A DNA stretch of 64,000 bases from contig NC_058368.1 of the NCBI RefSeq assembly GCF_018350175.1, forward strand, positions 28,894,001 through 28,958,000, read 5' to 3'. The notes beneath the pieces were generated by a model. The model saw only the letters and a list, made by a program, of their open reading frames with translations, was not told where the DNA came from and did no database searches. Made by a program: the position numbers and the translations under genes. The number at the start of each line of letters is the position of its first letter. Positions within the stretch are counted from its first letter, which is position 1. Below are positions 12,066-64,000 of this stretch, in pieces. This DNA comes from Felis catus. Taxonomy: Eukaryota.

Positions 12066-12648
12066 GGGGTTTTTGGTAACAGACAGGTGCTCTTATGAAG
12101 ATATTTTACATTCACCAGTAGAGAATAAATATGGATTTTATGTATAAAGCTTGAACTTTGGCCCTTGTCCCATCTTTCAGAATTGGAAATAAGTATGCTG
12201 TGATCCTCTGCCCCATGCCAGTGAGAGGCATCGCTAACCAGGAGCGCTTTTCTGGTTAAATCTTGTCCTGGCCTCATGGTTCTCAGAACAACATTCCAGG
12301 CAGCTGCCGTCAGTCAGAATCGGCCCATAAAAATAATGCTGCTCTTTCTGTAATTGAACTCTCTGTTTCAGTATTGTCCACTTATGCAAACTAGAGTTTT
12401 AATTGTTTTTTGTTTCTTTGTTTTTATACCTTTTCTGTATTTTTGGGAGAAAAGAGCATTTTGGGAGGTTAGAATTAAAGTTAATTGATATATATACATA
12501 ACGTATGTATATCCTAATCAATCCATCACGGTTTGTCCACTGAGTTCCAGCTGTGTGCTCAGTCTCATGATTCAGATTTCACTGGACCTCTTGACCAGTC
12601 AGAAAATCTACTGCAGATCACACAGTTAACACCTTTTTGTCATTACAG

Positions 12649-12848
12649 AAAATGAGGAAAATACCCTCTATGTAGTTGCATGCAATCCCATCACCTTATA
12701 CTTTCTGAACATGACGGGGAAAAGTGGCTACATGGTGGACCTCTCTGACCTCTTCCCAAGAATGGCCGGTAGAATTTGGCACCCATTTGTGACAGTGGCA
12801 CCGCTGGGAAATCCCCTCAAGGGTCAAGTGGTTCTCCACGAGCAGCAG
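12649..12848 (+). CDS. VWA8: VWA8 coding exon (about exon 29), 200 nt
   Basis: cattacag|AA AAT GAG...CAG CAG|gtaagg; (E)NEENTLYVVACNPITLYFLNMTGKSGYMVDLSDLFPRMAGRIWHPFVTVAPLGNPLKGQVVLHEQQ. Confidence 0.95.
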
Positions 12849-13066
12849 GTAAGGCATCCCGGGCTACTCACATGGTACAATTACTCCAAGAGTAAGCTGT
12901 GTGAAGAAAAAGGCAAAGGTGATTCGCAACCTACAAGTGAAAATACGTGCTTTCATAAACATCAAGGAGGGATCAGAGCTGTGTTTTGTCAGTACCACAA
13001 AGGCAGGCTAATATCTTCTCTGCAGAGACTTCAACATGACCTATAATTCTGGAAGCATGTAAATTA

Positions 13067-13125
13067 GGCTTTCTCAACCTCAGCACTAATGACATTTGAG
13101 GCCGGATAACTCTTTGTTGTGAAAC
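13067..13125. mobile_element. MER20-like hAT fragment
   Basis: ggctttctcaacctcagcactaatgacatttgaggccggataactctttgttgtg. Confidence 0.65.
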
Positions 13126-13368
13126 TTGCATTCTCTTTGGGGAGACAGACCATAAAGTAAGCCAACAAATAAATATGCTGGTTTCAGGCGGTGATAAGTG
13201 CTGTATAGAAACGAGACAATGTCCTGGGGAGTGATAGGGGTGGGGGAGGAGGAAGTGGAAGGTGGAAGTAACAGTATGAAGGGGTGCTCCCCTTAGGAGA
13301 TGTGTTTTATTTGAAACCTGAATGACATCCTTAATGTAGACACAGCCACAAACATATAGTGAATGGAC

Positions 13369-13739
13369 TTGTCTTGGTCTTGTTTGGGCTACTATAACAC
13401 AAGTAGCATAGACTAGGGAGCTTATAAACAACAGAAATTTATTTCTCACAGTTCTGGAGGCTGGGACATCCAAGATCAAGAATAAGCAAATCTGGATCTG
13501 GTGTCTGGTGAGAACCCACTTGCTAGATAGCTGTCTGTTCATTGTAACCTCACGGGGCAGAAAGAGTGAGGGATCGCATTGGTGTCTCATTTATGAGACC
13601 ACTGATCCCATTCAGGAGGACTCCACCCTAATGACCTAATCACCTCCCATAGACCCCTACCTCCTAGTAATCCTAAATGCCAGGGTTTAGGATTTCAACA
13701 TATGAATTTTGGGAGGACATAAACCTTCCGTTCACTGCA
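13369..13739. mobile_element. MaLR solo LTR (MLT1A-like)
   Basis: TG...CA termini; aacaacagaaatttatttctcacagttctggaggctgg and atgacctaatcacctccc motifs. Confidence 0.8.
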
Positions 13740-13856
13740 CGATGACACTGAACTCCTTTGGTATGTAATGAAGCTCAAGTTTTAACCATCACTTCTAGTG
13801 TAAGATAGCACTAATGAAAAGTACAGGTGTTTAGAGTCAAGCTTAAAATAATTCCA

Positions 13857-14080
13857 GGGGCGCCTGGGTAGCTCAGTCGGTTAAGTGTCTGATTTTGGCT
13901 CAGGCCATCATCTCACGCTTCGTGGGTTCAAGCCCTGGGTGGAGATCTGTGCTGACAGCCCAGAGCCTGGAGCCTGCTCGGATTCTGTGTCTCCCTCCCT
14001 CTCTGCCCCTCCCTGCTCGTGCTCTGTCTCTCTCTGTCTCTCAAAAATAAATAATAAAAAACACTAATTTAAAAAAAATA
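13857..14080 (+). mobile_element. Can-SINE (felid type)
   Basis: GGGGCGCCTGGGTAGCTCAGTCGG head; TSD ataattcca. Confidence 0.94.
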
Positions 14081-14249
14081 ATAATAATTCCAAATAGAAG
14101 GTATAGATCAAAAAGCAGGCTGTGTCTCAATTAGTGAGAATTCTGAAGGTCTAAGTTAATCTGTACCATACCAATAGAAAGGAGTGTAATGCTTTTGCAT
14201 GCTTATTATCCACCTAGTATCTACGAAATACCATACTATTCATTCAAGC

Positions 14250-15420
14250 ATATTATTCATTCAACAAACTATATCATGTGCCTATTACTGGGGATGCTGC
14301 AGCAAAGAAAACAACAATAATTTTTGTCCTGAAAAGCTTACATTGTGGTACAGGAAGACAGACAATCAGCAAAAGAAGTAAATTATATCTCAAGCTAGAA
14401 GAGGAGAAGCAAGGCTGACAGGAAGATTGCCATTCAAAGTAGGGTAGATGGGCAGGGATCGTCTAACTGAGGAAGGGATATTTAAGCAAAGGCTTGAGGG
14501 ACGTGAGGGGGAGAACAGATATCTAAAATAAGGGCATTCCAGGCAGAGGCCCAGAGGCTGGAGCATGCTTTTGTTCCATCTTTAAAGAAGTGTGATGGGG
14601 AAGATTGAGCAAGGGGGAGAGCATAAGGAGGTGAGATCACAGGTTACTCAGCTAGTTAGAGCAGGGACGTGGTGCAGGGAGTGAGGAAGCAGGCTGTGCA
14701 GAGCCTCGTAGACCATTGTAATGTCCCGGGCCCTGACTGTGGGTGGAAGAGGAAGGTGTTAGAGCATCTCAAGCAGAGGAGTAGCGTGACCTGACTTAGA
14801 TATTTAAAAGATTTCTCTGGCTCCTCTGCAGCAAATAGTCTGTAGGTGGTAAGGCAGAATGAAGGAGACTAGTAAAGAAATTTTTGCAGTGATCCAGCGA
14901 GAGGTAATTGCAGTTTAGAGTGTGGAGGTTGTAAGTAACGATGGGTTCTGGATATATTTTGAAGGTAGAACCAACAGGATTTCCTAACAGATCAGATGCA
15001 TGGGGTGAGAGAGGATGGAGCTAATTAAGAGCAACTTCAAAGTCTAGGGAATGAGCAACTGAAAGAACAGAGTCACCATCAACTGAGATGAGGAATTGAT
15101 TTGGGAGGGAGTAGACCTTTGATTAAATGTGAGATGCCTGTTAGACATCCCAGCAGATGAGCCTGGAGTTCAGGGGAGAGATCAGAACATTTGGGAGTCT
15201 TGGCATGTACATGTTACTGAAAACCACGAGGCTGAAAGAGGTCACCAAGAGAGTGAGTGTGGGCAGAGAAGTCCAAGCCCTGGGGCAATGAAATATTAAG
15301 AAATCAGGGAGATACGGGAGAATCAACCAAGGGGATTGACGATGAGTGGCCAGTGAAGTAGGTGGACAGGGCAGGGAGTGTGGTATCCCAGAAGGCTAAG
15401 TGATGAGCCTCGCAAACAGA
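14250..15420 (+). mobile_element. L2 fragment
   Basis: ttcattcattcaacaaac end motif; ctggatatattttgaaggtagaaccaacaggattt and gagatgcctgttagacatcc motifs; orientation given as read, boundaries approximate. Confidence 0.65.
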
Positions 15421-16013
15421 AGGAGCAGTTATTAAATGTTGGCAGTGTGCCAAATGAAAGATTACATACATCATCCCATGCTGTTCTTCCAGTAGACCAC
15501 TGCGATACCCGTCAGCCAGATTTACATTTGAGAGAATGGAGGCTCAGAGAGTTTCAATAACCTGCCTGGTAGCTACATAATGAACTGAGATTCAAACCAG
15601 ATTGGATTGGCCCCCCCAGAATTAAACTCCATCCACCATCTCACTCACTGTAGCTACTTGGGGAAAAGAATAGTGTGAAAACTTAAAAAGTATTCATAAT
15701 AGGAAAATATTAAAGAAATGCAGTGTTGCTATTTACGAATACTTAAAGTCACTAGGAGAACAAAGTGTTACCAAGAAACAATACTTTTAGTGTTGCATAA
15801 ATAACATGTCAGTGTTTCACTGAGTAAATAAGTCAACTTTAACTTTAGGCCTTGTGTAAATAATTATCATGAATTCTGAGTTAAATTTTTTCAGGTTTTC
15901 ACTTTTTTTTTCATTTTCACTTTCTCCTGCAAGCAGAATTTATAAATATCCACATATTGCTTATAAAAGTTTGCATCCATCACATGGAATAAGGGTTTTG
16001 CTTTATAGGTTCT

Positions 16014-16233
16014 TTTTTTTTTTTAAGTTTATTTATTTATTTTGAGAGAGACAGAGAGAGAGAGAGAGAGAGACCATGAGCATGAGCAGGGGAGGGGCAG
16101 AAAGAGAATTCCAAGCAGTCCCTGCACTGTCAGTGCAGAGCCCAACGTGGGGTTTGCACTCACAAACTGAGATCATGACCTGAGCCAAAACCAAAAGAGG
16201 GATGCTTAACCGACTGAGCCACCCAAGCACCCC
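16014..16233 (-). mobile_element. Can-SINE
   Basis: Poly(T), (GA)n, reverse-complement head; TSD ttataggtt. Confidence 0.93.
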
Positions 16234-17723
16234 TTGTGTTATAGGTTTCTAATAAAATATCAGTGGCATTGAATTGCATTCTACAATGAGAAGAATCTGT
16301 CATAAAAAACACATGCTATCTTGGTGATTTTTAATTCAGCAAGCCAATTGAGTAAGAATCTAAATTTGGAGTATTTATTCAAACAATCCTGCCAGATTTT
16401 CAGCTGTCAAATTAACTTCCAATTTTACATATACCAATTCTTGGAAAGTACTAGATTTTTAGATTCTTAGCAAGTATTTTATTTTCTCAGAAGATCCAAT
16501 TATTTGGCAACATTGCTGATTAATACTCTGTTCAGCATTTTACAACTGTCGTGGCCAGACTGTCAACTTCCATGGCCAGCACTTTGTCTCCTGACATTCT
16601 GACTTGTCCCTTTGACCACAGCCTGAACAGTTTTCTAGAAAGCTACCTCAGCACCCTGAGAAGGCATGCCTAGCTTGTAGGAATATTCCCACTGTACCCT
16701 CTGAACTGACTCTTCTTTTCCCAAAGAGGGTATCTTAGCCATCATATTAAAACCCTGTTAGGAGGTAAGACCTCTTTAGTTTCAAATGAACAGCATGCGT
16801 CTGTAAAATTGGACAAATGATAAATAATTCTAATCAAATAACAAATGTGTGCACTGCCATCAGTTCCTCCTTCCCCATCCTGCCCTCACTGAGAGCAGAG
16901 CTAAAATATTGCAGAGAATCACTGCCATTAATTCCACTATCCCTTGTCTAAAGCTTGCTATGGATGCATTTCCCTGGTTAAAGAAGTTGTTCAAAGCTTC
17001 CTCGCTAAAATAAAATCTTAAGTGAGGAAAGGGAAACTTGGCCATGCCTAAAAATAAAGACCCTCCACCCTTCCCCCTCTCCTGCCATGAGATTACTTAT
17101 TACATCTGTACGAAGTTTAGAATTTCAGACTTTAGGACATTGGGGTCATCCAGAGGTTACTTTTCTCCCAGTCAGATACAAACATAATAAAATTGCTCAC
17201 TTCTTCTCCCTGCCCCCTTAAAGGAGCACCAAAGCCACAGTTACATGTACTCATGTGTGACGCAAAATTCTATTTTTAAACTCAGAATATATCATTAGTC
17301 ATTTACAGAAGGAAACCATTAACATCCAAAAGGATGGACCAACAGAACTCCTTCATGTTGCCAATTGTTTCTAAAACTAATTCTAAGTCCAACGACGGCT
17401 GCAAATACATATATGCTTTCTGTCGTTCGGAAAGGCACAGGTTTTCAATTTGCTTATGCCAAGTTATGAGTATATAAGTATTAGACCCTAAAAAGGAAGA
17501 AAAATGCAAAACCATACTTATTTTTCTGCTTAATCGTATCTGTTTAATCATCTGCTTATTCTTCTGCTTAATTATATTTTGGAATCAAACATTATTTTTA
17601 GAACTTTCTTTTGCTTAGAAAAGTTAATATTATCCCAAACTGCTAAAGCGCTAAGAATTCATGTTAATGTTGTTCATATTTATCATACAAGAAAGAGTTT
17701 CTCCTTTAAAAAAATACTTCCAA

Positions 17724-18005
17724 GGGGCGCCTGGGTGGTTCAGTCGGTTAAGTATCCGACTTCAACTCAGGTCATGATCTCGCAGTCCGTGGGTTCGAGC
17801 CCCGCGTCGGGCTCTGTGCTGACATCTCAGAGCCTGGAGCCTGCTTCGGATTCTGTGTCTCCCTCTCTCTCTGACCCTTCCTCATTCATGCTCTGTCTCT
17901 CTCTGTCTCAAAAATAAATATTAAAAAATAAATAAAATAAAATAAAATAAAATAAAATAAAATAAAATAAAATAAAATAAAATAAAATAAAATAAAATAA
18001 AAATA
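17724..18005 (+). mobile_element. Young felid Can-SINE with expanded (TAAAA)n tail
   Basis: CpGs retained; about 15 TAAAA units at 17929-18008; TSD aaaaaatacttcc. Confidence 0.95.
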
Positions 18006-18455
18006 AAAAAATACTTCCTCAAAAAAAAGATTTAATCTAGAATGGAATAAGACTGTCACTTTTTAATTTGTTAATTAATACATTTTCTTAAGTAACTTTA
18101 AGGTACTTTAAGGTACTGCCATCCTTTTCAAACTTTCAAAGGCCAGAAATAATACCTCTCATATGAAATGATTTTAAAAAGAATATCTGTAACACACGTC
18201 CTGAATGGAAAATTGCCTGTCATACCAATGATGCATTCTAAGAGTGATGTTTGTGGAGAAGTTTAAACTCTGTCAACATGTTTAATAGAATTTTTTAACA
18301 GCCAGGATTCAGTGAAGGAAACTGCACGGTACAAATACTACTTTAATTTTTGAGCACTTCAGTACAATTAGCTAGTAAAATACACTTGAAACCGCACTAT
18401 GAGGTCCCAGGTTAGTGGATGAATCATCAATCTTTCTGCCTTTCTTTTTATTTCT

Positions 18456-18599
18456 TTTTTTTAACTTTAATATAATTTATTGTCAAGTTGGCTAACATAC
18501 AGTGTATACAGTGTGCTCTTGGTTTTGGGGGTAGATTCTCATAATTCATCACTTATATACAACACGCAGTGCTCATCCCAAGTGCCCTCCTCAATGCCC
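18456..18599 (-). mobile_element. Very short L1 3' end fragment
   Basis: tttattgtcaagttgg...cagtgctcatcccaagtgccctcctcaatgccc, similar to the 3'UTR at 19733-19800; long flanking direct repeat. Confidence 0.85.
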
Positions 18600-18986
18600 A
18601 TCATCAATCTTTTTGCCTTTCTTTTTATTTCTAACTGGACCACATAAGAGAGGGCAAGGGTCATGGTTAATTCATTATTGTGTCCTCCTTTGTGCTTTAA
18701 ATATAAGCTGCTCAGTAAATACTAAGAAACAAGCCAACAAACATTTTTTATTTTGTCTCCTATATTTCACAAACTATACAGTAATTCTTTGGGTGCTTTA
18801 TGACTTCATTTTCCCCAAAGAAAGTTTTTGAAATGAAAAGTTCCTAAGGGTTAGGATAGCTAGAGAAGCCCCAAATTTAAAACAAAACAAAACAAAAACT
18901 TTCTAGAAAAAGACCATTGCATAACAATGTGGCTTGACAAACAGCTTGTACGTGCCTTTTTGCGAACGTTTTTGGGGCTCTCGGAG

Positions 18987-19210
18987 TTTTTTGATTTTTG
19001 TTTTATTTTAGAAAAAGAGTGTGTGTGAGTGGGAGAGAGAGCAGAGGGGGAGAGAGAGAAAGAAAGAGAGGGAGGGAGGGAGAAAGAATGAATCCCAAGC
19101 AGGCTCCATGGTCACTGGTTCAGCATGAGTCAAACATGGGGCTCAATCCCAAGACCCTGGGATCATGACCAAGAGTCAGACGCTCAACCAACTGAGCAAC
19201 CCAGGTACCC
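18987..19210 (-). mobile_element. Can-SINE (older, diverged)
   Basis: GA-rich tract and reverse-complement head; TSD tgcgaacgtttttg / tgcaaacctttttg. Confidence 0.88.
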
Positions 19211-19590
19211 TGCAAACCTTTTTGTCTAATCTTCAAACATGTTTAAATTTTAACTTAAAAAAAAAAAAACCAAGCTAATAGCATCTCTTTAAAATATTTA
19301 ATCTTTTCTGGCTTTCTCAATTTTAAGTTCTTATTCATGTATTTCTGTTCATTGATTGTAATGCTTGAGATTTACTTAAATTTTTTTTCTTGAAAAAACA
19401 CTGCTAATTACTGGGAGATTATTACTTCATTTGCAAAACTGTGATTAATACCGCTGGAGAGAAATCTCTTGTTTGTACATTATTACAGCACCAACTGTGA
19501 GTTTTGAAATGAAGACACACTCATTATGAATTAAGTTCTTGAGATCCTGATATTTTCTTGCTAACCCATCTATTTATCATGTACACATTT

Positions 19591-19632
<42 letters not shown>

Positions 19633-19948
19633 TTGTATTTTTGCTTTATTTCTTTTTTTTTTTTTTTTTTTTTTTATTTTTTATTTTTTTATTTATTTTT
19701 TTTTTTTTATTTATTTTTTTTTTAATATGAAATTTATTGACAAATTAGTTTCCATACAACACCCAGTGCTCATCCCAAAAGGTGCCCTCCTCAATACCCA
19801 TCACCCACCCTCTCCTCCCTCCCACCCCCCATCAACCCTCAGTTTGTTCTCAGTTTTTAAGAGTCTCTTATACTTTGGCTTCTCCCACTCTAACCTGTTT
19901 TTTTTTTTTTTTTTTCCTTCCCCTCCCCCATGGGTTCCTGTTAAATTC

Positions 19949-22900
19949 TCAGGGTCCACATAAGAGTGAAACCATATGGTATCTGTCTTTCTCTGTATGG
20001 CTTATTTCACTTAGCATCACACTCTCCAGTTCCATCCACGTTGCTACAAAAGGCCATATTTCATTTTTTCTCATTGCCACGTAATATTCCATTGTGTATA
20101 TAAACCACAATTTCTTTATCCATTCATCAGTTGATGGACATTTAGGCTCTTTCCATAATTTGGCTATTGTTGAGAGTGCTGCTATGAACATTGGGGTACA
20201 AGTGGCCCTATGCATCAGTACTCCTGTATCCCTTGGATAAATTCCTAGCAGTGCTATTGCTGGGTCATAGGGTAGGTCTATTTTTAATTTTCTGAGGAAC
20301 CTCCACACTGCTTTCCAGAGCGGCTGCACCAATTTGCATTCCCACCAACAGTGCAAGAGGGTTCCCGTTTCTCCACATCCTCTCCAGCATCTGGAGTCTC
20401 CTGATTTGTTCATTTTGGCCACTCTGACTGGCGTGAGGTGATACCTGAGTGTGGTTTTGATTTGTATTTCCCTGATAAGGAGCGACGCTGAACATCTTTT
20501 CATGTGCCTGTTGGCCATCCGGATGTCTTCTTTAGAGAAGTGTCTATTCATGTTTTCTGCCCATTTCTTCACTGGGTTATTTGTTTTTCGGGTGTGGAGT
20601 TTGGTGAGCTCTTTATAGATTTTGGATACTAGCCCTTTGTCCGATATGTCATTTGCGAATATCTTTTCCCATTCTGTTGGTTGCCTTTTAGTTTTGTTGG
20701 TTGTTTCCTTTGCTGTGCAGAAGCTTTTTATCTTCATAAGGTCCCAGTAATTCACTTTTGCTTTTAATTCCCTTGCCTTTGGGGATGTGTCGAGTAAGAG
20801 ATTGCTACGGCTGAGGTCAGAGAGGTCTTTTCCTGCTTTCTCCTCTAAGGTTTTGATGGTTTCCTGTCTCACATTTAGGTCCTTTATCCATTTTGAGTTT
20901 ATTTTTGTGAATGGTGTGAGAAAGTGGTCTAGTTTCAACCTTCTGCATGTTGCTGTCCAGTTCTCCCAGCACCATTTGTTAAAGAGGCTGTCTTTTTTCC
21001 ATTGGATGTTCTTTCCTGCTTTGTCAAAGATGAGTTGGCCATACGTTTGTGGGTCTAGTTCTGGGGTTTCTATTCTATTCCATTGGTCTATGTGTCTGTT
21101 TCTGTGCCAATACCATGCTGTCTTGATGATGACAGCTTTGTAGTAGAGGCTAAAGTCTGGGATTGTGATGCCTCCTGCTTTGGTCTTCTTCTTCAAAATT
21201 CCTTTGGCTATTCGGGGCCTTTTGTGGTTCCATATGAATTTTAGGATTGCTTGTTCTAGTTTCGAGAAGAATGCTGGTGCAATTTTGATTGGGATTGCAT
21301 TGAATGTGTAGATAGCTTTGGGTAGTATTGACATTTTGACAATATTTATTTTTCCAATCCATGAGCAGGGAATGTCTTTCCATTTCTTTAAATCTTCTTC
21401 AATTTCCTTCATAAGCTTTCTATAGTTTTCAGCATACAGATCCTTTACATCTTTGGTTAGATTTATTCCTAGGTATTTTATGCTTCTTGGTGCAATTGTG
21501 AATGGGATCAGTTTCTTTATTTGTCTTTCTGTTGCTTCATTGTTAGTGTATAAGAATGCAACTGATTTCTGTACATTGATTTTGTATCCTGCAACTTTGC
21601 TGAATTCCTGTATCAGTTCTAGTAGACTTTTGGTGGAGTCTATCGGATTTTCCATGTATAATATCATGTCATCTGCAAAAAGCGAAAGCTTGACTTCGTC
21701 TTTGCCAATTTTGATGCCTTTGATTTCCTTTTGTTGTCTGATTGCTGATGCTAGAACTTCCAGCACTATGTTAAACAGCAGCGGTGAGAGTGGGCATCCT
21801 TGTCGTGTTCCTGATCTCAGGGAAAAAGCTCTCAGTTTTTCCCCGTTGAGGATGATGTTAGCTGTGGGCTTTTCATAGATGGCTTTTATGATCTTTAAGT
21901 ATGTTCCTTCTATCCCGACTTTCTCAAGGGTTTTTATTAAGAAAGGGTGCTGGATTTTGTCAAAGGCCTTTTCTGCATCGATTGACAGGATCATATGGTT
22001 CTTCTCTTTTTTTTTGTTAATGTGATGTATCACGTTGATTGATTTGCGAATGTTGAACCAGCCCTGCATCCCAGGAATGAATCCCACTTGATCATGGTGA
22101 ATAATTCTTTTTATATGCCGTTGAATTCGATTTGCTAGTATCTTATTGAGAATTTTTGCATCCATATTCATCAGGGATATTGGCCTGTAGTTCTCTTTTT
22201 TTACTGGGTCTCTGTCAGGTTTAGGAATCAAAGTAATACTGGCTTCATAGAATGAGTCTGGAAGTATTCCTTCCCTTTCTATTTCTTGGAATAGCTTGAG
22301 AAGGATAGGTATTATCTCTGCTTTAAACGTCTGGTAGAACTCCCCTGGGAAGCCATCTGGTCCTGGACTCTTATTTGTTGGGAGATTTTTGATAACCGAT
22401 TCAATTTCTTCACTGGTTATGGGTCTGTTCAAGCTTTCTATTTCCTCCTGATTGAGTTTTGGAAGAGTGTGGGTGTTCAGGAATTTGTCCATTTCTTCCA
22501 GGTTGTCCAGTTTGTTGGCATATAATTTTTCATAGTATTCCCTGATAATTGTTTGTATCTCTGAGGGATTGGTTGTAATAATTCCATTTTCATTCATGAT
22601 TTTATCTATTTGGGTCATCTCCCTTTTCTTTTTGAGAAGCCTGGCTAGAGGTTTGTCAATTTTGTTTATTTTTTCAAAAAACCAACTCTTGGTTTCGTTG
22701 ATCTGCTCTACAGTTTTTTTAGATTCTATATTGTTTATTTCTGCTCTGATCTTTATTATTTCTCTTCTTCTGCTGGGTTTAGGCTGCCTTTGCTGTTCTG
22801 CTTCTAGTTCCTTTAGGTGTGCTGTTAGATTTTGTATTTGGGATTTTTCTTGTTTCTTGAGATAGGCCTGGATTGCAATGTATTTTCCTCTCAGGACTGC

Positions 22901-23773
22901 CTTCGCTGCGTCCCAAAGCGTTTGGATTGTTGTATTTTCATTTTCGTTTGTTTCCATATATTTTTTAATTTCTTCTCTAATTGCCTGGTTGACCCACTCA
23001 TTCGTTAGTAGGGTGTTCTTTAACCTCCATGCCTTTGGAGGTTTTCCAGACTTTTTCCTGTGGTTGAGTTCAAGCTTCATAGCATTGTGGTCTGAAAGTA
23101 TGCATGGTATAATTTCAATTCTTGTAAACTTATGAAGGGCTGTTTTGTGACCCAGTATGTGATCTATCTTGGAGAATGTTCCATGTGCACTCGAGAAGAA
23201 AGTATATTCTGTTGCTTTGGGATGCAGCGTTCTAAATATATCTGTCAAGTCCATCTGATCCAATGTCTCATTCAGGGCCCTTGTTTCTTTATTGATCGTG
23301 TGTCTAGATGATCTGTCCATTTCTGTAAGTGGGGAGTTAAAGTCCCCTGCAATTACCACATTCTTATCAATAAGATTGCTTATGTTTATGAGTAATTGTT
23401 TTATATATTTGGGGGCTCCGGTATTCGGCGCATAGACATTTATAATTGTTAGCTCTTCCTGATGGATAGACCCTGTAACTATTATATAATGTCCTTCTTC
23501 ATCTCTTGTGACAGCCTTTAATTTAAAGTCTAGTTTGTCTGATATAAGTATGGCTACTCCAGCTTTCTTTTGGCTTCCAGTCGCATGATAAATAGTTCTC
23601 CATCCCCTCACTCTCAATCTAAAGGTGTCCTCAGGTCTAAAATGAGTCTCTTGTAGACAGCAAATAGATGGGTCTTGTTTTTTTATCCATTCTGATACCC
23701 TATGTCTTTTGGTTGGTGCATTTAATCCATTTACATTCAGTGTTATTATAGAAAGATACGGGTTGAGAGTCAT
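19949..23773 (-). CDS. LINE-1 ORF2p (1274 aa; APE endonuclease, reverse transcriptase, Cys-rich domain)
   Basis: ATG at 23773 ([18 protein letters not shown]); EN motifs QETH, GDFN, KIDH, SDH; RT motifs QGCPLSP and [22 protein letters not shown] knuckle; no stops or frameshifts. Confidence 0.97.
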
Positions 23774-23823
23774 TGTGATGTCTGTATGATTTATGCTTGT
23801 AGTGATGTCTCTGGGACTTTGTC

Positions 23824-24717
23824 TCACAGGGTCCCCCTTAGGATCTCTTGTAGGGCTGGTTTAGTGGTGACAAATTCCTTCAGTTTTTGTTTGTTTGGGA
23901 AAACCTTTATCTCTCCTTCTATTCTAAATGACAGACTTGCTGGGTAAAGGATTCTCGGCTGCATATTTTTTCTGTCTAGCACCCTGAAAATCTCGTGCCA
24001 ATTCTTTCTGGCCTGCCAAGTTTCAAAAGAGAGATCAGTCACGAGTCTTATAGGTCTCCCTTTATATGTGAGGGCACGTTTACCCCTTGCTGCTTTCAGA
24101 ATTTTCTCTTTATCCTTGTATTTTGCCAGTTTCACTATGATATGTCGTGCAGAAGATCGATTCAAGTTACGTCTGAAGGGAGTTCTCTGTGCCTCTTGGA
24201 TTTCAATGCCTTTTTCCTTCCCCAGTTCAGGGAAGTTCTCAGCTATGATTTCTTCAAGTACCCCTTCAGCACCTTTCCCTCTCTCTTCCTCCTCTGGGAT
24301 ACCAATTATGCGTATATTATTTCTTTTTAGTGTATCACTTAGTTCTCTAATTTTCCCCTCATACTCCTGGATTTTTTTATCTCTCTTTTTCTCAGCTTCC
24401 TCTTTTTCCATAACTTTATCCTCTAGTTCACCTATTCTCTCCTCTGCCTCTTCAAGCCGAGCTGTGGTGGTTTCCATTTTGTTATGCATTTCGTTTAAAG
24501 CGTTTTTCAGCTCCTCGTGACTGTTCCTTAGTCCCTTGATCTCTGTAGCAAGAGATTCTCTGCTGTCCTGTATACTGTTTTCAAGCCCAGCGATTAATTT
24601 TATGACTATTATTCTAAATTCACTTTCTGTTAAATTATTTAAATCCTTTTTGATCAGTTCATTAGCTGTTGTTATTTCCTGGAGATTCTTCTGAGGGGAA
24701 TTCTTCCGCTTGGTCAT
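23824..24717 (-). CDS. LINE-1 ORF1p (297 aa; coiled coil, RRM, CTD RNA chaperone)
   Basis: ATG at 24717 ([10 protein letters not shown]...); motifs [34 protein letters not shown] at 23826-23824. The track start at 24756 is a non-ATG extension. Confidence 0.96.
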
Positions 24718-25194
24718 TTTGGATAGTCCCTGGCGTGGTGAGGACCTGCAGGGCACTTCCCCTGTGTTGTGGTGTATAACTGGAGTTGGTGGGCGGGGCC
24801 GCAGTCAGACCTGATGTCTGCCCCCAGCCCACCGCTGGGGCCACAGTCAGACTGGTGTGTGCCTTCTCTTCCCCTCTCCTAGGGGCGGGATTCACTGTGG
24901 GGTGGTGTGGCCCGTCTGGGCTACTTGCACACTGCCAGGCTTGTGATGCTGGGGATCTGGCGTATTAGCTGGGGTGGGTAGGCAAGGTGCACGGGGGTAG
25001 GAGGGGCAGGCTTAGCTCGCTTCTCCTTAGGTGATCCTCTTCAGGAGGGGCCCCTCTTCCGTGGGCCTCTCGTCTGCGTTTGGCTCCGTCGACTCCGTTC
25101 TGCTAATCCTCTGGCGGTTTTCTGGGTTATTTAGGCAGGTGTAGGTGGAATCTAAGTGATCAGCAGGACGCGCGGTGAGCCCAGCGTCCTCCTA

Positions 25195-25208
25195 AGCCGC
25201 CATCTTGC
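25195..25208 (-). promoter_or_regulatory. YY1-type site at the L1 5' terminus (CAAGATGGCGG)
   Basis: Minus strand reads GAGATTGAAGCGGCAAGATGGCGGCTTAGG; AAGATGGCG is the YY1 motif typical of mammalian L1 5' ends. Confidence 0.8.
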
Positions 25209-25630
25209 CGCTTCAATCTCCATGTACACATTTTCTGAAGTAAATCTGGATTTGTGAAAAGCATGAGTGAGATTTAGTTATGCACAATGTAAGACAATTT
25301 TCAACAAAACACTCTTGACATGTAAATTTTATGAAAGTAAATGGACTTTAAAAATTATCAATCCTCTTAATTTCAAGTATATAATAAAACAGAACCATGG
25401 TTAAAATAGCCTGTGTATAGAAGGGGATGGTTTTAAGATAAAATCTTCAAAGAGACTCCCTTCTGCATTACATAATTGAAATATTTTCATAAAACCATCT
25501 ACTACTTTAAATTCTGTATTAAGGAAAACCATTTAGTATCTTTATGGTGTCTCTTAAGTATTTCAATATTGTCATCTTCCTTTCGGTTTACCACTATATG
25601 TTTTATTCCCAGGTTGTCAAGAAGCTGCTG

Positions 25631-25667
<37 letters not shown>

Positions 25668-25701
25668 ATCTTGAGCTGTTTACTGTTCTCTTTATTTCCA
25701 G

Positions 25702-25812
25702 AGTAATGTCATCCTCTTATTAGACACCACTAGCCGAGCCCTTCGACGTCTCATCCTCCCTTCCGAAGAGGTTACACCTAAGAAATCTTCCTGGTGGAAC
25801 AAGGAGGAAGCT
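25702..25812 (+). CDS. VWA8: VWA8 coding exon (about exon 30), 111 nt
   Basis: ttatttccag|AGT AAT...GAA GCT|gtaagg; SNVILLLDTTSRALRRLILPSEEVTPKKSSWWNKEEA. Confidence 0.94.
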
Positions 25813-28664: not shown

Positions 28665-29084
28665 GTAAATCCCATGTTCTTTGTGTTTATGACTGTATGG
28701 GTACGTGCTTACAGTCCCCTAGAATCCTTTTAGAGCAGTAACATCAACATATGTTAAGTTCATACTAAAAGGGAAAGCTTAGTAACTACTTTAGAAATAG
28801 TAAATGAGAATCTACTCTTTTTTTAAGTTCTGTCATTGATTTTTCTAACAGAGAAATCAGAATTTTTATATACATTCAGGTGCCAAGTCTAATAGTCTTT
28901 TAGGGTAGCATCTTTTCTTTTTTTACACAGACCATTAGATGTCTACTTAATTCACCACAGTTTTGGGGGGTGAATAGTACTTATGGAAAAAATCTAAAAC
29001 ATACCATTACCAGCACTGGTTAGGGCAGTTTCACATCATTTCTTCAGGGTGCTATTAGTGATAATATGCATTGCTAATAAATTT

Positions 29085-29267
29085 TTTTAATGTTTATTTA
29101 TTTTATTTATTTTTTAATATATGAAATTTATTGTCACATTGGTTTCCATACAACACCCAGTGCTCATCCCAAAAGATGCCCTCTTCAGTACCATCACCTA
29201 CCCTCCCCTCCCTCCCACCCCCCCATCAACCGTCAGTTTGTTCTCAGTTTTTAAGAGTCTCTTAAGC
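29085..29267 (-). mobile_element. Short felid L1 3' end, same family as the full-length copy
   Basis: Close match to 19720-19869; approximate TSD gctaataaa(a)tttt on both sides. Confidence 0.9.
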
Positions 29268-29493
29268 GCTAATAAAATTTTGAATTCAGTAAATACTTGC
29301 ATTCACTTAGAGAAGACACCTTGACTGTAAAAATGGAGTTTTCTCAAACAAAAGGCCATGAATATAATTAAACTGTTTTCTCTTTTTTAACTTGTGCTTT
29401 TCTATTTGAGTTGGCAAGAATGAAATCTTGCAAAAATTAATTCCTGGAGCATTGTAGGGGCATATGGTATCTAATGTTTCTCTGCCACTGCAG

Positions 29494-62195: not shown

Positions 62196-64000
62196 AGGTA
62201 TACATTGAAGAACTTCTCCATACCAGTGATTTTCTTTTAATTGACTGCTTAGGATATGCTAGGTGCTATCAATACATAACCACCATTATATTGTTCTATT
62301 CTGAGGTTAGATTAAGTACTTTGCCCCAGATCACTCTCCTAAACAACGAACAAAGCTGAGATTTCAGCCTAGCTCTCTCCAACTCAGAAGCCCATGTTTT
62401 TATTCCTCTTCACCACATGGCTTCCCTAGGTCCAAAAGACTAGTTTCAGTGGAGATTGTACCCTTAGAGGAGAAAATCATTCTTTGTCTGTCCTGGAGAC
62501 CAAATGCTTACAGGTGCTGGATAGGGAACACAGATCTGGAGGGTCTGAGGTAAACAGGAAGTCATGCCCCTTCGAACTAAGAGGGCAGTCTCTACTTCGC
62601 TGTGGCCATGTGAGAATGCAGGCTCAACTTGGACAGTTTCAAGAGAAGACCGAAATCCAGACTTTTAAATGAAATCTCATTAATTTGAAAATTTGGCAAC
62701 AACTCAGCATTTTTTTGTGGATAGAGTGATGACAGAACACTCCAGGACCCACAGATCTCTCTTTCTTCTCACCAGGTTTGGGATGTATCAAGAAATGAAA
62801 CCCCATTCCCTTACAAGCTTTTTTCAAATAACTTACCTATGTTGGTAAATTCCCTTACTTGCTCTACAAAGTTTTTTAGTTCTCCTAATTAAATTAGGAG
62901 AATTCTAAACCCCCAGGTTTAGAATAAAAAGTCAAAAAGATGGGAAATCTACTGCCATGTTATATACCTACCCTGAAATTTAAAAAAAAAAAAAAAAAAA
63001 AAGGAATGTACCTAAATCAGAGGAAAGGAAAAGGGGGAAACAAAGGGAGAAAAGTAAACATAAATATCTCAAAATATTATCCAGGCATAAAGAGATAAAA
63101 ATTATGTTTCTTCTTCCTAAGTTGTGTGCATATCCTCTAAGAAAAGCCATAGTATATCAAAGGTACTTTTTTTTTTTTTTTTTTTTTTTTTTTAGTTTGT
63201 ATGCTGTTTAAGTTATAATGAGGAGTAATGTAGCTCTTAATTGTGAGGGAAGGAATCTAACTGGTCCCAGGGTGGTTTTGTTTAATGCATTTTATGAGCA
63301 ACAAAGCAAAATTCTCTACTCATGACAAGAATGAGAAGGATGAAACTAGAACGCTCTCCACATAGCTCTTCCACGTGCATTTTCATGTCCTGTGCCTTCC
63401 CTCACATTGTCCCCTCTGGCTGGGATGCCCATCACCCACTTCTGTGTCTCACCCTTCAAGGCTAAGCACACATGGCTCCAGCCTATCCACCCCCAGCTGA
63501 ATTCATCCCTCCTTCCTTGGTATCGCTGTGCCCTGGCCGCATGTGATCTATAACTGCTGTGTGTCAGAAGGGCAAGCTGCCCCACAGCAGAATTTTGTCC
63601 ATTGAGGCATCTGCCTGGTAGCCTGACATGGGACCAGAGCTCAATAAATTTGTGATGAATCAGTGAACCAATAAATGAATATATGATTAATTGGGGCATT
63701 AAAGCTTTTATAAGATCCCTGCGACGGGTCATAAAAGCTGCAAACTCCTTTGGTGTTTCTTAGAAGGCTACATCTTTTGTTTCTGTAAATGAGCTCACTG
63801 TTCACAAGCCGACTATTGCCTAAGTTGGCAGAGAACCAAATGGTAATAAATCTCCCACCCTTCCTTTTTTCCTACACTTGTTACTTTGTGGCTGTATCAT
63901 GAACACCTGTGAACCAGGTGGCCAAAACTGAATTTAATTCCCAGTTGTGTCCAGTCCCTTAGGCAAGTCATTCAACTTCTCTGGAGCTCCATTTTTGCAT

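What the first reader, a model, noticed from the sequence alone, without database searches (positions are those of the whole stretch)
19593..19723. Double poly(A) tail with a 23-nt 3' transduction tag identifying the source L1
On the L1 strand the 3'UTR is followed by an old interrupted A tract (19653-19723, with AAT interruptions). Next comes a non-A insert GAAATAAAGCAAAAATACAAAGC (19630-19652) containing AATAAA 15 nt before its end, then a pure run of 37 A abutting the TSD. This is the layout expected when transcription reads through a parent L1's tail, uses a poly(A) signal in the flank and is re-polyadenylated (3' transduction). The tag should locate the parent locus. If the parent already carries the 5'UTR deletion, a spliced L1 was itself mobile, which would contradict the dead-end model.
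Basis: partly seen in the sequence, partly recalled or inferred. Interest (0 to 1): 0.7.

Follow-up and report, generated by a model that had tools for sequence, protein, structure and literature searches.

The report
Short L1 3' transduction tag
A young LINE-1 jumping gene in a cat-family genome carries 23 extra letters between two poly(A) tails, most likely DNA dragged along from beside its source copy, which is a common and well-described by-product of LINE-1 copying.

Summary
The layout is real: a coding-intact felid L1, antisense in a VWA8 intron and bounded by a 16-bp target-site duplication, ends in a 71-nt A tract, a 23-nt tag with AATAAA 15 nt before its end, and 36-37 A. Point mutation of an A run cannot give the tag. 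Best reading: an ordinary short partnered 3' transduction. The source could not be located: no felid genome is held, collection scans were empty and the read tool skipped the tail. The hexamer placement is weak evidence (13% of shuffles). The claimed stake does not hold. One transcript of an unspliced source can be both spliced and read through; Larson 2018's S1 Table marks 5 of 144 human spliced L1s as transduced, one with a 39-bp tag found beside a full-length L1PA1. A mobile spliced L1 is already published (RAP1GDS1). The scan noted the same kind of tag before on other DNA (e1-664649, e1-7788097). Useful marker of a source L1; low novelty.

The parts
19578..19593 (.). 3' copy of the 16-bp target-site duplication (last letter shared with the tail)
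   Evidence: longest exact match between the two flanks
19593..19629 (-). new, pure poly(A) tail (36-37 A)
19630..19652 (-). 23-nt tag, probable transduced flank of the source L1 (15 A, 3 G, 3 C, 2 T)
   Evidence: origin inferred
19645..19650 (-). AATAAA in the tag, 15 nt before the new tail; probable signal used for cleavage
   Evidence: 1 of 9 hexamers in the 3' end lies 10-30 nt from the final run; use inferred
19653..19723 (-). first A tract (source element's genomic tail), six T interruptions, ending in A23
19733..19738 (-). L1's own AATAAA at the end of the 3'UTR, 103 nt from the final run (bypassed)
   Evidence: role inferred
19724..19948 (-). L1 3'UTR (225 nt), with an internal A18 at 19898-19915
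19949..23773 (-). ORF2, open, 1274 aa
   Evidence: motifs located (motif labels recalled)
23824..24717 (-). ORF1, open, 297 aa
24718..25220 (-). 5'UTR, 503 nt; putative splice junction at 25052/25053 (not tested here); YY1-like motif at 25198-25207, position +14 from the element's start
25221..25236 (.). 5' copy of the target-site duplication; nick context TTCT/G
   Evidence: TTCT/G is also listed for a human SpIRE
12648..25812 (+). host gene context: VWA8 exons at 12648-12848 and 25699-25812 flank the intron holding the L1 (antisense)

Best explanation
Short partnered 3' transduction from an ordinary, most likely unspliced, full-length source L1. RNA polymerase II starts at the source's own promoter, passes the L1 poly(A) signal and the source's genomic A tract, meets an AATAAA a few letters into the flank (probably inside the source's own A-rich target-site duplication), and the RNA is cut 15 nt later and given a new tail. 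The same RNA loses part of its 5'UTR by splicing. ORF2p nicks the VWA8 intron at TTCT/G, primes on the new tail and copies the whole RNA, leaving the 16-bp duplication. Shown: the order L1-tract-tag-tail inside one TSD, the hexamer spacing, open ORFs. Inferred: genomic origin of the tag, use of the hexamer, state of the source's 5'UTR.
For: One TSD encloses L1, tract, tag and tail. Tag not explained by point mutation. Of 9 hexamers in the 3' end only the tag's lies 10-30 nt before the final tail. In human tumours 248 of 349 transductions are under 100 bp, often between two poly(A) tracts, and 274 of 349 end 10-30 bp after a signal; about 20% of germline insertions carry one, with a described 17-A/44-nt/33-A case. 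[quoted passage not shown] Only 13 letters lie between the TSD and the YY1-like motif, so there is no host-exon leader, unlike the daughters of the mobile RAP1GDS1 SpIRE.
Against: No source copy seen: 0 hits in three collections, which showed no felid L1 at all, so the blanks are uninformative. 12.7% of 100,000 shuffles of the tag also put AATAAA 10-30 nt from the end. The tag holds a 10-letter repeat at period 13 that 1.4% of 20,000 shuffles reach (noticed after the fact), which suits slippage. The tag is unconfirmed in reads. The splice itself was not tested here.
Confidence: 0.72

Rival explanations
1. Transduction from a source that was already spliced, so that a spliced L1 was itself mobile.
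For: Both ORFs are open; the 168 nt upstream of the junction stay CpG-rich (observed/expected 0.93 against 0.23-0.25 in the flanks); human SpIRE97/622 keeps weak promoter activity; one mobile human SpIRE is described.
Against: Needs an extra rare step; nothing in the sequence favours it over one-step splicing plus read-through. The one human short tag with a named neighbour lies beside a full-length L1. No host-promoter leader here.
Confidence: 0.06
2. The tag is the 3' end of another polyadenylated RNA: a tiny 5'-truncated retrocopy that landed in the L1 tail with an invisible all-A duplication, or a template switch from that RNA to the L1 RNA.
For: AATAAA, 15 nt and poly(A) is also what any mRNA end looks like (sequence). 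Larson's table lists spliced L1s interrupted by later insertions.
Against: A second hit within 100 bp of a young element is unlikely (inference). In the passages I read of PMC13174262 the foreign RNAs are joined 5' of L1. No likeness to the 28 repeat ends printed from the window, judged by eye; nearest other window match has 6 mismatches.
Confidence: 0.08
3. The tag arose during copying or later by slippage and untemplated letters within the A tract (a degenerate 13-nt dimer), with no source elsewhere.
For: 10-letter internal repeat at period 13, 1.4% of shuffles; 15 of 23 letters are A.
Against: The two halves differ at 2 of 13 places and one half would still have to be made from pure A; the test was chosen after seeing the repeat; interruptions in the first tract are all single T.
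Confidence: 0.08
4. Sequencing or assembly artefact between two homopolymers.
For: Long homopolymers are error-prone (general knowledge); one search gave no depth over the tail.
Against: Such errors change run lengths rather than write 23 mixed letters with a correctly spaced hexamer (inference); 5 kb of open reading frame and a perfect TSD show clean sequence nearby.
Confidence: 0.04

Closest known systems
Partnered L1 3' transduction, short type (PMC13009371: passages and section 9 read; PMC6425141: passages read)
   Same: L1, internal A tract, short non-L1 tag, signal 10-30 nt before a second poly(A), all inside one TSD at an endonuclease-type site.
   Different: Felid germline copy, not human; source not located; 23 nt is below the modal tag lengths of 37-85 nt of the short-tag sources in that paper's Table 1.
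Human SpIREs with 3' transductions (Larson 2018, PMC5860796: passages and the whole S1 Table read), e.g. non-reference SpIRE(97-790)-2 and SpIRE(97-790)-3
   Same: Near-full-length L1 with a putatively spliced 5'UTR and a short transduced tag; intronic and antisense to the host gene like about 63% of intronic SpIREs.
   Different: Felid 5'UTR and splice sites; splice and source not verified here.
Mobile RAP1GDS1 SpIRE (PMC13174262: section 14 and passages read)
   Same: Would be the precedent if the source proved to be spliced.
   Different: Its daughters carry host exons at the 5' end; this element has none.

Membership tests
Partnered L1 3' transduction | L1 body, extra sequence and final poly(A) enclosed by one TSD | tested here: met
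   16-bp TSD at 19578-19593 and 25221-25236
Partnered L1 3' transduction | Extra sequence is not L1 and lies between two A tracts | tested here: met
   Single in the window, absent from the tail of the second L1 3' end at 29081-29264; no felid L1 library was available for a wider check
Partnered L1 3' transduction | Poly(A) signal 10-30 nt before the final tail | tested here: met
   15 nt; weak, as 12.7% of shuffles do the same
Partnered L1 3' transduction | Endonuclease-type target site | tested here: met
   TTCT/G, a variant also listed
Partnered L1 3' transduction | Source locus: tag behind an L1 tail, continuing into unique DNA | not testable with these tools
   No genome held; scans empty; tail skipped in reads
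SpIRE (spliced L1 copy) | 5'UTR deletion whose ends are splice donor and acceptor in an unspliced copy | tested here: inconclusive
Mobile SpIRE (RAP1GDS1 type) | Source element itself carries the splice junction | not testable with these tools
   Source not located
Mobile SpIRE (RAP1GDS1 type) | Host-gene leader joined 5' of the L1 | tested here: not met
   13 letters between TSD and YY1-like motif (motif recalled)

The most novel reading that the evidence does not exclude
The source is itself a spliced L1 that still transcribes from what is left of its own promoter (this copy has no host leader and keeps a CpG-rich 168-nt 5' end), so a short-leader L1 lineage made by splicing is spreading in cats without a borrowed promoter; the tag would lead straight to its founder.
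Probability: 0.05. Interest if true: 0.6.

Novelty: new member of a known kind. Interest (0 to 1): 0.17.

Why it matters
As it most likely stands, it is a handle on one recently active L1 source in a cat-family genome: an exact hit would be meaningful (under 0.01 expected by chance) and would show the source's 5'UTR. That is useful to people mapping active felid L1s, not surprising. Only if the source is spliced and self-driven would it add something new: splicing as a way to found a new L1 promoter type.

Tried and rejected
Own genome: none held. Exact tag scans: 0 in metagenome, prokaryote-genome and viral contigs. Attempts to get other felid L1 copies for their tails and 5'UTR: 0; ORF1 scans gave 0 confirmed of 188 and 0 of 48 pattern matches. 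These collections hold little or no felid DNA, so the blanks say nothing about the source. Runs: 20 of 24 listed hold the left flank, all one organism, 14 flagged as a possible source of this DNA. I laid 4 of the 24: 2 contigs and 8 reads on the flank, nothing over the tail, no joints or loose ends listed (4 loose ends at repeats dropped by the tool). Tag letters in papers: 0 in either orientation; VWA8 + LINE-1 + cat + insertion: 0; a felid L1 polymorphism search listed 10 papers, none on this by title or abstract start. The YY1 paper is not held. Rejected: point mutation of an A run (the first such sum used 9 changes in error, the tag has 8); 'interrupted therefore old' for the first tract; the hexamer as strong proof. 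The store of supplements gave no answer for PMC5860796; I read its S1 Table from the mirror and not its S1 Data; supplements of the other papers were not opened.

Full report
Observation. The segment is as described. On the minus strand an L1 runs from 25220 to 19724 with open ORF1 (297 aa) and ORF2 (1274 aa). It is followed by a 71-nt A tract with six single T interruptions, a 23-nt tag and 36-37 A; a perfect 16-bp duplication at 19578-19593 and 25221-25236 encloses all of it. The tag is single in the window at up to 3 mismatches. Eight non-A letters in 23 cannot come from point mutation of an A run at the low divergence that open ORFs imply (P 1e-8 at 2%). The pattern of two long A runs 10-200 nt apart occurs 2 times in the window, both in this element.

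Setting. An exon at 27252-27377 matches felid VWA8 (100% to two Prionailurus proteins, 98% to lynx), and tblastn of one of these places 11 exon hits on the plus strand, with the L1 antisense between exons at 12648-12848 and 25699-25812. The species was not determined. The nick context is TTCT/G, which also appears in Larson's table.

How strong is the poly(A) signal argument? Nine AATAAA/ATTAAA hexamers lie in the 3' end; eight are 43-103 nt from the final run and only the tag's is at 15 nt. That fits the 10-30 nt rule met by 274 of 349 human transduction ends. But the tag is 65% A, and 12.7% of 100,000 shuffles give the same placement; 2 of 44 other A runs in the window are followed closely by AATAAA. 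It is supportive, not proof.

Search for the source. No genome is held. The tag was absent from three contig collections, and these yielded no felid L1 at all, so nothing follows. Public runs hold the left flank (20 of 24 listed), but laying four of them gave no depth over the tail, which the tool skipped as a repeat. The decisive test is therefore open. It would be decisive: 0.0005-0.004 exact chance copies are expected in 2.5 Gb under four Markov models trained on this window, though such models undercount A-rich tails.

A side hint. In both contig runs (2 of 2) the contig over the left flank stops 28 letters beyond 19579, that is at 19607, which is 19577 + 30. With 31-letter words (word size taken from the tool text and recall) this is where a contig must stop if an empty allele and the L1's 5' junction both lead into the duplicated site. 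That suggests that both alleles are present and the insertion is polymorphic. It is an inference from lengths alone: no letters were shown, neither contig ran on through a clean empty site, and a filled allele ending after 15 T would give the same length.

Mechanism. Most likely one RNA from a full-length source started at the normal L1 start (13 letters before a YY1-like motif; motif and its usual position recalled), read past the L1 signal and the genomic tail, was cut at a flank signal, re-tailed, spliced in the 5'UTR and inserted by target-primed reverse transcription. The tag probably begins with the source's own A-rich target duplication (inference).

Comparison with what is known. About 20% of human germline L1 insertions carry 3' transductions, and a 17-A/44-nt/33-A example is described (PMC6425141, passages); long reads show 248 of 349 somatic ones under 100 bp (PMC13009371, passages and section 9). 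[quoted passage not shown] The paper calls such copies dead ends but allows rare second rounds (passages), and PMC13174262 describes one, driven by the RAP1GDS1 promoter, whose daughters carry host exons (section 14). So a tag on a spliced L1 is expected under the dead-end model, and the exception is already known. Tags are also inherited through lineages (14 members in PMC6425141), so this one would find the founder, not surely the parent. I found no paper on this insertion in two searches. The scan has noted the same kind of tag on other DNA.

Verdict. Real feature, probable short 3' transduction (about 0.78 in all; 0.72 from an unspliced source, 0.06 from a spliced one), new member of a known kind, interest 0.17. 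The bold case, a self-driven spliced L1 lineage in cats, is not excluded (0.05).

Noticed in passing
window 19276-19607 (runs X7, X20): Both contigs end at the place expected if filled and empty alleles coexist; the coding-intact L1 may be polymorphic in this species.
   Followed up: partly
window 19898-19915: Pure A18 on the L1 strand inside the 3'UTR, about 35 nt after the ORF2 stop; a possible internal priming site.
   Followed up: no
window 23824-24717: ORF1 is 297 aa, shorter than the human protein (338 aa, recalled); whether this is the normal felid length was not checked.
   Followed up: no
window 29073-29276: Older, severely 5'-truncated L1 3' end (89% identical to the young one) with a 9-letter flanking repeat at 29073 and 29268 that may be its TSD.
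   Followed up: partly
window 25634-25663 and 63167-63193: Pure A30 and T27 runs with no evident retro-element attached; the A30 lies about 35 nt upstream of a VWA8 exon.
   Followed up: no
window 25053-25220: The part of the 5'UTR upstream of the putative junction is CpG-rich (observed/expected 0.93), the part downstream is not (0.29).
   Followed up: partly
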